Shown one piece after another: positions 43,747 to 48,939 of a DNA stretch of 64,000 nt. The stretch is from Alphaproteobacteria bacterium (GTDB taxonomy: Bacteria; Pseudomonadota; Alphaproteobacteria; UBA9219): NCBI GenBank assembly GCA_028866275.1, contig JAGWIK010000008.1:10707-74706 (forward strand), in the 5' to 3' direction. The translations under genes and the position numbers were made by a program. The first letter of the stretch is position 1; each line of letters opens with the position of its first letter. The notes beneath the pieces were generated by a model. The model was given only the letters and a program-made list of their open reading frames with translations. It ran no database searches and was not told where the DNA came from.

Positions 43747-43777
43747 TGGTTGCGGGGGCGCGATTTGGTTCAAATAT
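43747..43777. repeat. imperfect direct repeat of the tRNA-Met 3' end (candidate attR / island distal boundary)
   Basis: TGGTTGCGGGGGC (13/13) then GCGATTTGGTTCAAAT, matching TGGTTGCGGGGGCCAGATTTGAAC at 48863-48886. Same orientation. Confidence 0.55.
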
Positions 43778-44264
43778 TAACCCGCCGCTGCTCGTGCCAC
43801 TAGTCTACGAAGGCCAGCGGCTTAAGGCAAGCCCCATGCAGGCCGCCATCCCCGATTGCCCTGTGCCTGCCGGACAGCCAGCCGAACAGGCTGCGCAACC
43901 GATAGCAGCCTAGCCAAGCCCATAGCGCCCCTTGGCTGTGCCTTGGCAGGGCTTATAGCGGATGCTCTTTGACCGCCCGCCGCCACAAAAAGGGTGATCT
44001 CCCTAAACATCGGGGCGACACCCACGGCGAGACACCCTTAAATTAGGGTGGTAAGGGGTGCAGGCGTGGCCAAGCGTATGTATAATGCTCCAATGGTCGA
44101 GGCAGCAATTTTCTGCTAACAATGATGCATAAAAAGCTCACAACCATAGCTGTAAAGCCTTGGTTAACAAATCATTGCTAAAATTATTGGCGGCCTAAGT
44201 TTTGCTGTGTGTATAGTACGCTGTACCCAGCCACACCATCAACCCAGTTGCCTGAGGGGCAGTC

Positions 44265-45245
44265 ATGACAAGCGGCAAATTATTAAGACAACTGGTAAAA
44301 GCGGCAGCAGAAGGCAACCCAAGGTCGCTCGAAGATGCCATATCGCAGGTCGTGCATGAAGAACGGGACAAGCAGCACCACTTGTTGGCGAATGACCTGG
44401 AGAGAATTCTCTACGGCATGGGGGGCAAGGCGGGAGATAATTTAAAGAACACCTATGGGGTCGTTCCTTCAGATAAAGAACGAGGACTCGATCTTCTGGA
44501 AATATTTGAACCTGCGCGTTCTTTGAATGATGTTATTTTGTCTGAACAAAATAAAAAAATTGTAGACAGGGTAATAGTTGAGAACAATCAACGCGCTTTA
44601 CTTAAAAGCTTCGGTCTGAAACCTGCACAAAAAATTCTATTCTATGGCCCCCCAGGCTGCGGCAAGACTGTAACCGCAGAAGCGATGGCTTCCGACCTAA
44701 GCCTCCCTCTCGTTCTTGTAAGGATTGACAGCGTTATTTCCTCTTATCTGGGCGAGACGGCGGCCAATCTGCGTCGTGTGTTTGAGTTTATTCGAGGGCA
44801 GACCTATGTGGTGCTTTTCGACGAATTCGATTCCTTGGCCAAAGAACGCTCCATAGCAGGAGATCACGGCGAACTGAAACGAGTGGTGAACGCATTTCTG
44901 CAAATGTTAGATGCTTATAAAGGCGATAGCATTCTTATTGCTGCTACCAATCATGAGGCGTTATTAGATAATGCTATATGGCGACGTTTTGATGAAATCA
45001 TCCCCTTTAAGTATCCGAGCAAAGCCCAAATTAAAGAACTGGTTTCCAAAAAGTTAAAGAGCGTTCGACGCGACTTTGATATGGATGACGCAAAACTTAT
45101 TGGCAGCCTTTCAAAGAAATCGCATGCTGATATCGAAAGGGTAATAATTCGCGCACTGAAGGACATGGTCTTAGGGGGGGGGCAATTTTTAACTTTGAAA
45201 CATTTAAATGAGGCAATAAAGTTAGATCAGTCTCGGAACGCATAA
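44265..45245 (+). CDS. AAA+ ATPase (classical AAA clade), IetA-like
   Basis: Walker A GPPGCGKT, Walker B VVLFDEFD, sensor-1 ATN and an Arg-finger region, preceded by a ~110-aa unique N-terminal extension. It is 15 bp upstream of the peptidase gene. Confidence 0.8.
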   Translation: MTSGKLLRQLVKAAAEGNPRSLEDAISQVVHEERDKQHHLLANDLERILYGMGGKAGDNLKNTYGVVPSDKERGLDLLEIFEPARSLNDVILSEQNKKIVDRVIVENNQRALLKSFGLKPAQKILFYGPPGCGKTVTAEAMASDLSLPLVLVRIDSVISSYLGETAANLRRVFEFIRGQTYVVLFDEFDSLAKERSIAGDHGELKRVVNAFLQMLDAYKGDSILIAATNHEALLDNAIWRRFDEIIPFKYPSKAQIKELVSKKLKSVRRDFDMDDAKLIGSLSKKSHADIERVIIRALKDMVLGGGQFLTLKHLNEAIKLDQSRNA

Positions 45246-45260
45246 AGTCTTGGCTGGTCT

Positions 45261-47633
45261 ATGGCAGAACATATACGTTTGACGCGGGAACAGCGCGGAA
45301 GCACAAGACGTCCTTCATCTAGGCGTCCCAGAGGGATACGCCCCCCTGAAGATATAGTGAGCTTTTGCCAGAGGACAGAACAAATCATTCAAAGTTTCCG
45401 TAGCACTGCAACGGATCAAATCGATGGATACGATGTTCGGCGGTTAGTGAAGCTTGAACTCGACACCGGCCTATCAGTTGATGATATTGCAAAAATCGAC
45501 GGCATTGAGTTTGTCGATCAAGACGATGGGGGCGTTGTCATTGCCCTCGCGTCAGAAAACTCTCTTGCTGAGTTTGAAGCTAGGCTTTCTGCAATAGTCC
45601 GGCATGAAAAAGTTAAAGGGGCTGAGGTTATATATGCTCTGAAAGATATGACGTCTTGGGGAGAGGAAGACAGAAAAGGACCACGCCTAAAATCAGAGCG
45701 CATACCAGATAATGAGTTCTTGGTAGACGCGGAATTGTGGTCACTTGACGGGAAGGCTGCTGAAGTCACAAAGATGCGCTCAGCATTCGAAACGTGGGCG
45801 CAGCGTACGAATATTGATATCACTGATAAACTGGCAAGCGCTCCATATTATAGACTATCAGTTGATGCCAATAAACTGAGCTTGCTATTGAAGCATAGGG
45901 ATGTTCGCTTTGTTGACCTCCTTCCGAGGTACGGCATCTCCCCTTGCGATACCTCGGTAGACATACAAGATTTGACTGTCCAGTCATCGCTCACAAATAA
46001 TGCGGGCGTGCTGGCCATTTTGGATTCAGGGATAGCAAGCAACCATCCGCTTCTATCTTCCGCTGTGGGCGATGCGCAGTCGTTTATTCAGGGGGCTGAT
46101 GCACAAGATAGTCATGGCCACGGAACATGGGTTTCTGGGGTTGCCCTGTATGGAGATGTAAGAGCAGCAATTGAGGCGAGAACATTTGTTCCAAAAATCC
46201 GACTGCTGAGTGGCAAGGTTCTCGATGACTCTGCGGAATATGAAAGAAAAATCATACTCAATTCGGTTAAAGAAGCCGTCGAGTACTTTTCAAGCAACTA
46301 TGGCTGCAAGGTTTTTAATCTGTCTTTTGGCGATAATAAATTTCAATATAACGGAGGACGGTTGCAGGCTTTTGCCATCGGGCTAGACCAGCTAGCACGG
46401 AAACATGATGTTCTTTTTGTTGTATCGGCAGGCAATTTTGATATTGAGGGATTCGCGCATAATGCGAACAAGACGGTTGAGGAAGTTTACCCCAGTTGTT
46501 TGCTTGATTCAGAAGCCAAAGTTCTTGATCCCGGCTCAGCTGTAAACGCAGTTACAGTTGGTAGCATGGCTGAATACGATAGGCCGCCCATCTACGACGA
46601 TGAGGAGATAACAAAAACACCAATTTCTTCACGTCTCCATCCATCGCCATTCACACGATCTGGGCAATCTATTAAGGGGGCTATCAAACCAGATTTTGTA
46701 GATTATGGGGGCAATTACACTCGGCATCACGGCAGACAGAATCTGCATTTAACCGAGTTGGGGCAAATAACTTTTAATCAAGCATTTGCCACTGACGGCA
46801 GGCTTTTCAAATTGGTGAATGGGACAAGCTTTTCTGCTCCGAGAGTTTCTCATTTAGCGGCGCGACTGCATGGACTGATGCCGCAAGTCAGGGCAACCAC
46901 AATACGCGCTATCCTTGGTGTTCACGCATACCTTCCCCTAAATGAAGCGCAACAAGAAGCCTTGGTAACTGCGTTGGCGAACGGCGGAGATAGCCCTCAT
47001 CTAAGCCGCCTATATGGTTTTGGTCACGTGAGTGATGATTGGATTTTTACCTCTGGAGACGAAGCTGTAACGCTTTATGCCGAGGACAACATAAGCAACA
47101 ATGTAAATCACTTTTACGAGATACCTATTGTCGATGAATTTATTACAGGAAAGAAAAGAACGAGAAAATATACAATCGCTTTAGCTCATACCCCTGTTGT
47201 GAGGGCGTCACGTTTGGACTATATCGCAACAAGAATATTTTTCAGATTGAAGTTAGCTTCCTCACTTGATGAGGTTGCAGATATTTTTTCGAATAAAGAG
47301 AACGCCATTAGAGCAAACGAAAATGGAATTGGCAGCCCCGAATATAAGATCGGTCCGCAGATGAGGGATAGAAGCACCCTTCAGGTTTCGAGCTTTTCTT
47401 TCCAGCTTAATCCAAGGAAAATGCAGGGCAAGAAGCTTTATCTAGCAGTTGTAAGAAATGATCGTCCTTGGGCTAAAGGCGATCCGTTAGTCAAAGAGGA
47501 AGAGCCTTATTCGCTAGCTGTCCATTTCCAAGACCGAGAAGCTGAGCAGGCGAACTTATACAACGCCATTCAGGCAAGCCTGCAAGCCAAGATGCAAGGC
47601 CGCACACAAGGTAGGGTTCGCCACAACAGGTAA
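45261..47633 (+). CDS. subtilisin-like serine peptidase (MEROPS S8), IetS-like, 790 aa
   Basis: Complete Asp-His-Ser triad in canonical order (ILDSGIA, HGHGTWVSG, NGTSFSAPRVSHLAARL). It has large non-catalytic N-terminal (~230 aa) and C-terminal (~250 aa) regions. Confidence 0.85.
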   Translation: MAEHIRLTREQRGSTRRPSSRRPRGIRPPEDIVSFCQRTEQIIQSFRSTATDQIDGYDVRRLVKLELDTGLSVDDIAKIDGIEFVDQDDGGVVIALASENSLAEFEARLSAIVRHEKVKGAEVIYALKDMTSWGEEDRKGPRLKSERIPDNEFLVDAELWSLDGKAAEVTKMRSAFETWAQRTNIDITDKLASAPYYRLSVDANKLSLLLKHRDVRFVDLLPRYGISPCDTSVDIQDLTVQSSLTNNAGVLAILDSGIASNHPLLSSAVGDAQSFIQGADAQDSHGHGTWVSGVALYGDVRAAIEARTFVPKIRLLSGKVLDDSAEYERKIILNSVKEAVEYFSSNYGCKVFNLSFGDNKFQYNGGRLQAFAIGLDQLARKHDVLFVVSAGNFDIEGFAHNANKTVEEVYPSCLLDSEAKVLDPGSAVNAVTVGSMAEYDRPPIYDDEEITKTPISSRLHPSPFTRSGQSIKGAIKPDFVDYGGNYTRHHGRQNLHLTELGQITFNQAFATDGRLFKLVNGTSFSAPRVSHLAARLHGLMPQVRATTIRAILGVHAYLPLNEAQQEALVTALANGGDSPHLSRLYGFGHVSDDWIFTSGDEAVTLYAEDNISNNVNHFYEIPIVDEFITGKKRTRKYTIALAHTPVVRASRLDYIATRIFFRLKLASSLDEVADIFSNKENAIRANENGIGSPEYKIGPQMRDRSTLQVSSFSFQLNPRKMQGKKLYLAVVRNDRPWAKGDPLVKEEEPYSLAVHFQDREAEQANLYNAIQASLQAKMQGRTQGRVRHNR

Positions 47634-48723: not shown

Positions 48724-48811
48724 TCTGGGAGTTCGACCTAAGGGTATCAGGTTTTTATTTCGGCGTTCAGATGTGTTAGCGACGTGCTAGTGATTTTGGA
48801 GGCTTAAAGCG

Positions 48812-48838
48812 ACAAAAGCCGCCCAGAGGGCGGCTTTA
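48812..48838 (-). terminator. intrinsic terminator downstream of tRNA-Met
   Basis: Stem AAAGCCGCCC-AGA-GGGCGGCTTT, then on the minus strand a run TTTTGTC about 25 nt after the tRNA 3' end. Confidence 0.6.
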
Positions 48839-48862
48839 TCCATTTGATTTATTTATGAAACT

Positions 48863-48939
48863 TGGTTGCGGGGGCCAGATTTGAACTGACGACCTTCAGG
48901 TTATGAGCCTGACGAGCTACCGGGCTGCTCCACCCCGCG
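48863..48939 (-). tRNA. tRNA-Met (CAU), initiator type (fMet)
   Basis: The reverse complement reads CGCGGGGTGGAGCAGCCCGGTAGCTCGTCAGGCTCATAACCTGAAGGTCGTCAGTTCAAATCTGGCCCCCGCAACCA. It shows a cloverleaf and a C1xA72 mismatch. It is near-identical to E. coli tRNA-fMet, and CCA is encoded. Confidence 0.88.

What the first reader, a model, noticed from the sequence alone, without database searches (positions are those of the whole stretch)
43747..48939. Decayed integrative island at initiator tRNA-Met with attL/attR-like repeats
The last ~25 nt of the tRNA (CCCCCGCAACCA plus part of the T-arm) recur as an imperfect direct repeat 5.1 kb away (43747-43777). An integrase N-terminal stub sits next to the tRNA and GC drops sharply inside. 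The island is short and the integrase is destroyed, which suggests that an old element has been reduced to its selectable cargo (the ATPase-protease pair and an hsdS fragment). A GC-rich, palindrome-containing 250-bp noncoding stretch (43800-44040) lies just inside the far repeat, so the true boundary is uncertain.
Basis: partly seen in the sequence, partly recalled or inferred. Interest (0 to 1): 0.6.

Follow-up and report, generated by a model that had tools for sequence, protein, structure and literature searches.

The report
Decayed tRNA island carrying IetAS defence
A 5.1-kb piece of foreign DNA sits at the end of the initiator methionine tRNA gene of an uncultured alphaproteobacterium; it is the immobilised remnant of a mobile element that still carries an intact, already known two-gene anti-phage/toxin-antitoxin system (IetAS), so it is real but ordinary.

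Summary
A tRNA-Met(CAT) with initiator features lies at 48863-48939 (-). Its 3' end recurs as a direct repeat at 43746-43767 (20/22 nt; none expected by chance). Between the repeats GC falls from about 57% to 45-48%, and tetranucleotide usage is the only strong outlier in the 64-kb window.

A 46-codon ORF next to the tRNA (48566-48703, -) is the N-terminus of a large tyrosine-integrase family. That family lies about 150 nt downstream of tRNA-fMet in all five other loci examined. The rest of the integrase is gone.

The "ATPase-protease pair" is an intact IetA/IetS system (PADLOC E 8e-96 and 2e-198; Walker motifs and Asp/His/Ser triad present). The hsdS piece is an orphan C-terminal half. Both ends of the repeat-bounded segment have host-like or backbone-like GC, while the cargo is low-GC. 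The closest ietAS relative (79% aa) is an equally low-GC cassette inside a Trb-type ICE.

Best reading: this is a decayed integrative island, CIME-like, that keeps an addictive defence module. Two things are not shown. No empty site could be found because no close relatives exist in the collections, and the unameliorated cargo argues against "old". It is a new member of a known kind, of low interest.

The parts
43746..43767 (.). Distal direct repeat (attR-like), a copy of the 3' 21-22 nt of the tRNA-fMet gene running from the T-loop CAAAT through the acceptor 3' strand to CCA
   Evidence: 20/22 match to 48862-48883, with 0 expected by chance. No further tRNA homology.
43768..44040 (.). GC-rich (62%) non-coding stretch just inside the distal repeat. 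It is a putative remnant of the element's far (attR-side) backbone. Function unknown.
   Evidence: GC 0.619. No Pfam, PHROG or Rfam hit. No plasmid DNA match. Only imperfect inverted or short tandem repeats. Fold z = -1.5 to -1.9.
44041..44264 (+). AT-rich ietAS leader/promoter region. It includes a 6-bp inverted repeat, CACCCT-N6-AGGGTG, at 44033-44050.
   Evidence: GC 0.464. 44150-44191 is weakly conserved (76% over 42 nt, E 0.05) with the same position upstream of ietA in L013. Sequence read.
44265..45245 (+). ietA, an AAA+ ATPase (326 aa), the antitoxin/partner of IetS
   Evidence: PADLOC IetA E 8.3e-96 over 4-322; Pfam AAA 3e-30. Walker A GPPGCGKT and Walker B VVLFDE are present. NCBI MDE1900928.1.
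45261..47633 (+). ietS, a subtilisin-like S8 serine protease (790 aa) with Y4kK N-terminal domains
   Evidence: PADLOC IetS E 1.9e-198 over 3-787; Pfam Peptidase_S8 1.4e-38. D255, H287 and S523 motifs are present. 79% identical to P0002. DNA homology to L013 is confined to 44265-47623.
47649..48383 (-). hsdS', an orphan C-terminal half of a type I R-M specificity subunit (one TRD plus the distal conserved helix). Recognisable homology runs upstream to about 48440, across an in-frame stop.
   Evidence: Pfam Methylase_S 1.9e-15. PADLOC Specificity_I residues 63-240 align to 203-379 of 387, and 1-241 align to 334-586 of 589. Translations. No hsdM or hsdR among the window ORFs of 200 aa or more that were scanned.
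48384..48565 (.). Junction/spacer between hsdS' and the integrase stub. No recognisable coding remnant.
   Evidence: Three-frame translations are full of stops. tblastn with a full-length family integrase finds nothing here.
48566..48703 (-). int', a 46-codon N-terminal stub of a tyrosine integrase. Homology ends near residue 35-38 (about 48590-48600).
   Evidence: 45% identity over 40 aa to the L001 integrase N-terminus. 79% identity to P0122, E 1.1e-10 against 1.84 billion proteins. All invariant N-terminal residues are kept. The L001 homologue matches phrog_1 integrase at 1.5e-28.
48704..48862 (-). Element-derived attL arm: the int leader (48704-48755, conserved with L023) and a strong hairpin plus U-run terminator (about 48814-48834) that now terminates the tRNA transcript
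   Evidence: blastn 48601-48755 versus L023 811-966, 79.6% identity, E 2e-31. Fold -20.9 kcal/mol, z = -3.2, with an equivalent hairpin in L023, L024 and L025.
48863..48939 (-). Initiator tRNA-Met (CAT) gene, the integration target. The proximal repeat copy is 48862-48883.
   Evidence: ARAGORN, Rfam, and C1:A72 in the sequence printed.

Best explanation
The segment 43746-48862 is the remnant of an integrative mobile element.

Proposed history:
1. The element entered the 3' end of the chromosomal initiator tRNA-Met gene by site-specific recombination, catalysed by its own tyrosine integrase. This duplicated about 21 nt of the tRNA 3' end. The tRNA-proximal copy completes the gene, and the distal copy marks the far boundary.
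2. The element supplied a new tRNA terminator and had the int gene immediately downstream of the tRNA.
3. Later deletion or rearrangement removed everything of int beyond about codon 36 and most of the backbone. That fused the stub to a truncated hsdS and left the island unable to excise on its own.

What survives intact is a low-GC ietA-ietS operon. IetS is a subtilisin-like protease that acts as the toxin/effector. IetA is an AAA+ ATPase that restrains it. In other hosts this pair stabilises plasmids as a toxin-antitoxin system and protects against phages.

Inference: the addictive and defensive nature of this pair, together with the lethality of deletions that reach the initiator tRNA, explains why decay stopped where it did.

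Shown: the anatomy, the homologies, the composition, and the integrase family's association with tRNA-fMet. Inferred: the order of events, IetAS activity in this host, and selection as the reason for retention.
For: (1) Target and repeat. tRNA-fMet lies at 48863-48939. A direct 20/22-nt repeat of its 3' end lies 5.1 kb away, with none expected by chance. The repeat is not a tRNA pseudogene.

(2) Integrase.
- The stub aligns to residues 1-40 of a 437-aa integrase that occupies the same position beside the orthologous tRNA-fMet/SCO1 pair in L001.
- The stub keeps all invariant N-terminal residues of the family.
- The family has more than 6,500 members at E<=1e-30 and is an integrase by PHROG.
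- It lies about 150 nt downstream of tRNA-fMet on the same strand in L001, L023, L024, L025 and L026.
- The int leader and 5' coding DNA is 80% identical to L023.
- All element-side flanks carry a hairpin terminator at the same distance from CCA.

(3) Foreign composition. There is a GC trough. Tetranucleotide KL is 3-4 times background and is the only strong outlier in the 64 kb. GC3 is 0.42-0.44 in the cargo against 0.60-0.74 in host genes.

(4) Ends versus cargo. The int stub (GC3 0.67) and the distal 273 bp (GC 0.62) are backbone-like, and the interior is low-GC.

(5) Cargo identity. IetA and IetS match full-length PADLOC models, and their catalytic motifs are intact. The closest relative is a cassette of the same low GC inside a Trb-type ICE, with homology limited to the two ORFs. 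Other relatives lie beside other integrases.

(6) Literature. IetAS is a toxin-antitoxin system (protease toxin, ATPase antitoxin) with anti-phage activity of unknown mechanism (PMC13069673, PMC4010927).

(7) Chromosomal flanks. The surrounding genes are housekeeping: RND efflux, SCO1, ATP synthase F0, kdp, rpoBC.
Against: - No empty site could be examined. The nearest genomes and metagenome contigs share only about 50-61% SCO1 identity.
- No intact member of the integrase family was recovered with both repeats visible. Those islands exceed the 10-kb flanks, so the family's core length is unverified.
- The repeat is short and has two adjacent mismatches in the T-stem 3' strand. These would not pair with the present T-stem 5' strand, so the distal copy cannot be an unaltered displaced tRNA end.
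- The cargo's GC differs from both ends, so it may have arrived separately.
- The stub is only 46 codons.
- IetAS expression and activity are untested, and no strong sigma-70 promoter was detected upstream.
Confidence: 0.78

Rival explanations
1. Composite, two-step origin. The repeats and the int stub come from one decayed tRNA-fMet element. The low-GC ietAS-hsdS' block entered later by an unrelated route, for example recombination with an ICE or plasmid, or a deletion-fusion that brought in part of a defence island. In this view it was not cargo of the original element.
For: Sharp GC contrast between the ends (54-62%) and the interior (45-47%). The ietAS cassette moves as a discrete two-ORF unit: homology with L013 stops at the ORF ends, and in L013 it is bracketed by IS66 copies in an ICE. 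The int breakpoint abuts a truncated hsdS and 180 bp of unassignable DNA.
Against: Mobile elements commonly carry low-GC defence cargo. In L013 the same low-GC cassette sits inside a 57-58% GC ICE, so a GC contrast does not require a second event in this chromosome. No IS element, second integrase or additional repeat lies inside the island.
Confidence: 0.3
2. The true left boundary is near 44040. On this view 43768-44040 is host intergenic DNA, and the 22-nt repeat is a relic of an older, unrelated integration or excision at this tRNA.
For: 43768-44040 has host-like or higher GC (0.62). It has no homology to any fetched element.
Against: Host non-coding DNA here is AT-richer: 43602-43745 is 46% GC and 48940-49109 is 54%. 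A 270-bp, 62% GC, non-coding block lying between a tRNA-end repeat and foreign DNA fits an element end better. KL divergence already rises in windows that cover it.
Confidence: 0.1
3. The repeat is a coincidence or a fragment of a second tRNA-Met pseudogene, and the low-GC block was acquired without site-specific integration.
For: The repeat is short and imperfect, and no empty site is available.
Against: Zero matches in 100 shuffles at up to 3 mismatches. The repeat is direct and sits at exactly the compositional boundary. There is no tRNA similarity beyond 21 nt and no second tRNA by ARAGORN or Rfam. An integrase remnant of a tRNA-fMet-associated family lies at the other end.
Confidence: 0.04

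Closest known systems
tRNA-gene-targeting genomic islands and prophages with tyrosine integrases (integration into the 3' end of a tRNA gene, T-loop/3'-end sublocation)
   Same: A tRNA gene at one border. A direct repeat of the tRNA 3' end at the other border. The int gene lies immediately downstream of the tRNA, the composition is foreign, and the element supplies a terminator.
   Different: The integrase is reduced to 46 codons. The island is only 5.1 kb. The integrase family is not captured by the Pfam catalytic-domain model at E<=0.01, although PHROG phrog_1 recognises it. The target is the initiator tRNA.
[quoted passage not shown]
   Same: Flanked by att-like repeats, with no functional integrase, no transfer genes and retained cargo.
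   Different: CIMEs were defined in Firmicutes with experimentally shown accretion and mobilisation. Here neither the functionality of the repeats (two mismatches) nor any mobilisation is shown.
IetAS (IetA AAA+ ATPase plus IetS subtilisin-like protease): a toxin-antitoxin/plasmid-stability system first described on an Agrobacterium Ti plasmid (my recollection), later shown to be anti-phage (PMC13069673, PMC4010927)
   Same: Two co-oriented adjacent genes with full-length matches to the PADLOC IetA and IetS models. Walker A/B motifs and the Asp-His-Ser triad are intact.
   Different: Chromosomal, inside a decayed island. It has no associated helicase, unlike the ietHAS variant. Activity is untested.
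Type I restriction-modification specificity subunit (HsdS)
   Same: One target-recognition domain plus the C-terminal conserved region match HsdS profiles.
   Different: Only the C-terminal half is present, it lacks a proper start, and no hsdM or hsdR was found in the ORFs scanned. It is an orphan fragment, not a system.

Membership tests
tRNA-integrated genomic island (tyrosine-integrase type) | tRNA gene forms one boundary | tested here: met
   tRNA-Met(CAT) at 48863-48939
tRNA-integrated genomic island (tyrosine-integrase type) | Direct repeat of the tRNA 3' end at the other boundary | tested here: met
   43746-43767 versus 48862-48883, 20/22, 0 expected by chance
tRNA-integrated genomic island (tyrosine-integrase type) | Integrase gene adjacent to the tRNA | tested here: inconclusive
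   Only a 46-codon N-terminal remnant is present. No catalytic domain exists anywhere in the window. This is evidence of past membership, not of a functional element.
tRNA-integrated genomic island (tyrosine-integrase type) | Composition distinct from the host | tested here: met
   GC, GC3 and tetranucleotide KL
tRNA-integrated genomic island (tyrosine-integrase type) | Absent from related genomes (empty attB) | not testable with these tools
   No close relatives. Best SCO1 identity is about 60%, and 90% clusters are singletons or nearly so.
CIME (cis-mobilizable element) | attL and attR retained, integration and transfer genes lost | tested here: met
   Repeats are present. int is truncated. 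No relaxase or T4SS genes lie among the island ORFs.
CIME (cis-mobilizable element) | Can be excised or mobilised by a cognate element's integrase (accretion) | not testable with these tools
   Requires experiment or population data
IetAS defence/TA system | IetA-type AAA+ ATPase | tested here: met
   PADLOC IetA E 8.3e-96, full length; Walker A/B intact
IetAS defence/TA system | IetS-type S8 protease with Y4kK N-terminal domains, adjacent and co-oriented | tested here: met
   PADLOC IetS E 1.9e-198. Homologues carry PF27160, PF27210 and PF00082. 15-nt intergenic gap. Catalytic triad motifs present.
IetAS defence/TA system | Anti-phage or toxin-antitoxin activity | not testable with these tools
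   Literature only, for other members
Type I restriction-modification system | Full-length HsdS with two TRDs | tested here: not met
   Only the C-terminal half aligns (model positions 203-379 of 387 and 334-586 of 589). In-frame stops lie upstream.
Type I restriction-modification system | hsdM and hsdR partners nearby | tested here: not met
   No methylase or helicase-nuclease among the 36 other window ORFs of 170 aa or more scanned with Pfam

The most novel reading that the evidence does not exclude
The island may not be dead. As a CIME-like element with both att-like repeats preserved, it could still be excised, or grow by accretion, when an incoming element of the same tRNA-fMet integrase family supplies integrase in trans. 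It would then be a hitch-hiking IetAS defence cassette.

A related and more speculative reading concerns the N-terminal int stubs found beside tRNA-fMet in the window, in L023 and possibly in L002, together with dozens of truncated family members among database representatives. These might be retained for a function, such as arm-site binding that blocks superintegration, or a leader/terminator function for the tRNA. The alternative is simply that deletions reaching the essential tRNA are lethal.
Probability: 0.1. Interest if true: 0.45.

Novelty: new member of a known kind. Interest (0 to 1): 0.25.

Why it matters
The finding adds one more example of a defence system riding on, and outliving, a chromosomally integrated mobile element. 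It fits the idea that addictive toxin-antitoxin-like defence modules are what remain when islands decay.

As a by-product it points to a large tyrosine-integrase family, poorly covered by Pfam, that appears to be dedicated to the initiator tRNA gene in Alphaproteobacteria. It also points to a low-GC ietAS cassette that is shared between this island and a Trb-type ICE.

None of this changes current understanding. Its value is for annotating the MAG, where these genes are currently labelled "ATP-binding protein", "S8 family peptidase" and "hypothetical protein".

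Tried and rejected
- **Empty-site search.** I queried genome contigs and metagenome contigs with the flanking SCO1 protein. Only relatives at 61% identity or less were found, and none was an unoccupied comparator.
- **Exact-protein look-ups.** IetS, P0001 and the OEP are not on record. 90%-identity clusters of host proteins are singletons or nearly so.
- **Word-indexed search with the stub.** It returned only the stub itself. The index-free search was needed to find relatives.
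- **Second repeat in intact family islands.** I looked in L024, L025 and L026 and found none within the 10-kb flanks, because those islands run on past the fetched DNA.
- **The integrase family in viral contigs.**
  - A single-protein query and an alignment that included the stubs found nothing.
  - An alignment without the stubs found a few 48-53% identical relatives in predicted proviruses, but with a different geometry, which was uninformative.
- **The GC-rich 43768-44040 stretch.** No Pfam, PHROG or Rfam hit, no plasmid DNA match, and no significant fold. Its origin is unresolved.
- **A conserved third gene after ietS.** I asked whether the ORF downstream of ietS in L013 is homologous to hsdS'. 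It is not, so hsdS' is not part of a three-gene cassette.
- **Integrase in L002.** The 411-aa ORF near the L002 tRNA is not an integrase.
- **PDB sequence search.** A search with the family integrase returned nothing at E<=1.
- **A second, older att remnant.** I considered TGGTTGCG at 43641 and rejected it because only 8 nt match.

Full report
**Observation**

ARAGORN finds a single tRNA in the window, tRNA-Met(CAT) at 48863-48939 on the minus strand. Rfam agrees at 59.4 bits. In RNA sense the gene begins CGCGGGG and ends CCCCGCAACCA. Position 1 (C) therefore faces A72, which is the bacterial initiator signature (the criterion is general knowledge). An almost identical tRNA closes a 23S-5S rRNA operon in L023, which is the usual place for tRNA-fMet in Alphaproteobacteria.

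The 22-mer TTGGTTGCGGGGGCCAGATTTG (48862-48883) recurs on the same strand at 43746-43767 with two adjacent mismatches. No additional match was seen in 100 dinucleotide-preserving shuffles, even at three mismatches. Beyond those 21-22 nt the distal copy shows no tRNA similarity, and no second tRNA or pseudogene is detected.

**Composition**

GC is 0.55-0.60 on both sides and 0.41-0.49 across about 44000-48700. Tetranucleotide KL divergence from the rest of the window is 0.30-0.48 over 43.5-49 kb, against a median of 0.10. No other part of the 64 kb approaches that value.

GC3 is 0.44, 0.42 and 0.42 for ietA, ietS and hsdS', against 0.60-0.74 for eleven host genes.

The two extremities are not low-GC. 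The int stub has GC3 of 0.67, and the 273 bp inside the distal repeat are 62% GC.

**Integrase remnant**

The ORF at 48566-48703 (-) encodes MADLNLMDGKLQLYRRGDGKIWQCSASVGGKQWRISTSSLLKNPMM.

- In L001, a MAG contig with the same tRNA-fMet-SCO1 arrangement, a 437-aa ORF starts about 150 nt downstream of the tRNA. Its first 40 residues are 45% identical to the stub.
- That protein matches PHROG phrog_1 "integrase" at 1.5e-28. It carries the ANTGLRPDE ... YSLRH..I..R ... Y motifs of tyrosine recombinases, although Pfam detects only a weak SAM-like domain.
- More than 6,500 database proteins match it at E<=1e-30.
- An index-free search of 1.84 billion representatives with the stub gave 106 hits at E<=1e-3. 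About 45 of them share the N-terminus at 42-79% identity. The 13 whose sequences I retrieved continue into the same integrase family before truncating or diverging.
- The stub retains every invariant N-terminal residue (G9, Y14, R16, W23, C25, S26, G31, R35, S37, T38 in L001 numbering).
- Family members sit just downstream of tRNA-fMet, on the same strand, in L001, L023, L024, L025 and L026.
- At the DNA level, window 48601-48755 is 79.6% identical to L023 811-966 (E 2e-31). This places the breakpoint of the window's int at about 48590-48600.
- tblastn with the full-length protein finds nothing else in the window.
- All element-side flanks carry an AT-rich stretch and then a strong hairpin plus U-run about 25 nt after CCA. 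The element therefore provides the tRNA's present terminator.

**Cargo**

The 326-aa and 790-aa ORFs match the PADLOC IetA (8.3e-96) and IetS (1.9e-198) models end to end. Walker A/B motifs in IetA, and the DSG, HGT and GTSxSAP triad motifs in IetS, are intact.

According to PMC13069673 and PMC4010927, IetAS was first described as a plasmid-stabilising toxin-antitoxin pair, with the protease as toxin and the ATPase as antitoxin. It also has anti-phage activity that needs the protease. Its mechanism is still unknown.

The closest IetS (P0002, 79% aa) lies in a Trb-type ICE between two IS66 copies. DNA homology with the window is confined to the two ORFs (44265-47623, 72%), plus a weak 42-nt leader match. 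There too the cassette is 45% GC in a 57-58% GC element. More distant relatives sit beside a different integrase (L034, L035) or beside a RES-domain gene (L033).

**The hsdS piece**

The 47649-48383 (-) ORF aligns only to the C-terminal half of HsdS models. It has in-frame stops just upstream. No hsdM or hsdR partner is present among the ORFs scanned. It is an orphan fragment. It is unrelated to the ORF that follows ietS in L013.

**Surroundings**

On the left are an RND efflux operon (MFP, AcrB, OEP ending at 43601) and ispDF. On the right are SCO1/SenC, ATP synthase F0 genes, kdpDBA and fhs. Further left are rpoBC, alaS, a pilus/T2SS-like cluster, truA and fmt. The island therefore lies in ordinary chromosomal context.

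**Interpretation**

An element with a tRNA-fMet-specific tyrosine integrase integrated at the tRNA 3' end. Later rearrangement truncated int and most of the backbone. What remains is a 5.1-kb CIME-like remnant, as defined in PMC5704250, that retains IetAS.

Because the ends are backbone-like in GC and only the interior is low-GC, I read 43768-44040 as the far end of the element rather than as host DNA. This is an inference.

Retention of IetAS through addiction and defence is also an inference. So is retention of the int 5' end and terminator because deletions into the initiator tRNA would be lethal.

"Old" is not supported. The cargo is unameliorated, and the repeat has only 2 mismatches in 22 nt.

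A two-step origin for the cargo cannot be excluded.

**What could not be done**

No close relative of the host exists in the searchable collections, so no empty site was seen. No intact family island was recovered with both repeats.

**Verdict**

It is a decayed tRNA-associated island carrying a catalogued defence system. Interest is low (0.25).

Noticed in passing
L023 1-1236 (ENA ERZ27249652 k141_34565): 23S 3' end, 5S, tRNA-fMet (637-713), a hairpin terminator, and an 87-aa integrase stub (864-1127). The stub is the closest relative of the window's stub (79% aa). It is itself truncated: family homology ends near residue 58. This is a second, independent decayed copy of the same element family, here at an rrn-operon tRNA-fMet.
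   Followed up: partly
L002 6480-6643 (-), next to tRNA-fMet at 6882-6958: A short ORF about 240 nt downstream of the tRNA contains HAILGGKVHLY, which matches the family's N-terminal motif (xHxILGGKVxLY), and then diverges. It may be a third, even shorter integrase stub. No repeat of the tRNA end was found in the 6.9 kb beyond it.
   Followed up: partly
Protein hits P0122-P0226: Every N-terminal match to the stub among the 50%-identity representatives is a short protein (45-269 aa). Of the 13 I read, several are visibly truncated, frameshifted or internally deleted integrases (for example P0139 and P0141 lack about 80 internal residues). Disrupted copies of this integrase family therefore seem common, although contig-end truncation and clustering bias were not separated from real decay.
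   Followed up: no
L013 6219-15441: The closest ietAS cassette lies between two 478-aa IS66 transposase genes in opposite orientation, inside a Trb-type (TrbE/L/F/G/I) ICE. The block also carries DUF2274 and DUF736 genes. It looks like a composite-transposon-like unit, and the cassette is 45% GC in a 57-58% GC backbone.
   Followed up: partly
L034 5237-14015; L035 1089-9867: A 53%-identical ietAS pair directly follows a 528-aa DUF6538/Phage_integrase gene. A 62-aa Arm-DNA-bind_3 ORF, probably another integrase N-terminal stub, lies 3.5 kb further on. ietAS therefore recurs in integrative islands that use unrelated integrases.
   Followed up: no
L033 1310-12340: A 58%-identical ietAS pair is preceded by a RES-domain gene and followed by an OEP-MFP-AcrB efflux operon. 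The window's island also abuts an RND efflux operon. This is probably coincidence.
   Followed up: no
window 48863-48939 (and the tRNAs of L001, L002, L023-L026): The anticodon stem reads UCAGG/CCUGA, so it has A29:U41 instead of the first of the three consecutive G:C pairs usually cited for bacterial initiator tRNAs. All relatives examined share this.
   Followed up: no
window 44033-44050: A perfect 6-bp inverted repeat, CACCCT-N6-AGGGTG, lies at the junction of the GC-rich stretch and the AT-rich ietA leader. It is preceded by tandem CGGGGCGACACCC/CGGCGAGACACCC motifs (44011-44037). The arrangement looks like an operator, but no regulator gene is present in the island.
   Followed up: no
window 43703-43726: A hairpin (GGCCCCGAACGGGC) is flanked by an A-run and a T-run, between the OEP stop and the distal repeat. 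It lies about 22 nt beyond the repeat's CCA, the same spacing as the element-borne terminator. It may be the original bidirectional terminator shared by the OEP gene and the tRNA. The fold is weak (-7.7 kcal/mol on the minus strand).
   Followed up: partly
window 13331-23213: A pilus/T2SS-like cluster (T2SSF, T2SSE/MshEN ATPase, secretin) contains four sizeable ORFs with no Pfam hit at E<=1e-8: 13331-14521, 15487-17013, 19937-20746 and 20752-21399.
   Followed up: no
window 36251-37750: A mild compositional dip (GC 0.52, KL 0.165 against a median of 0.10) lies around a Pyr_redox_2 gene and the intergenic region upstream of the RND operon.
   Followed up: no
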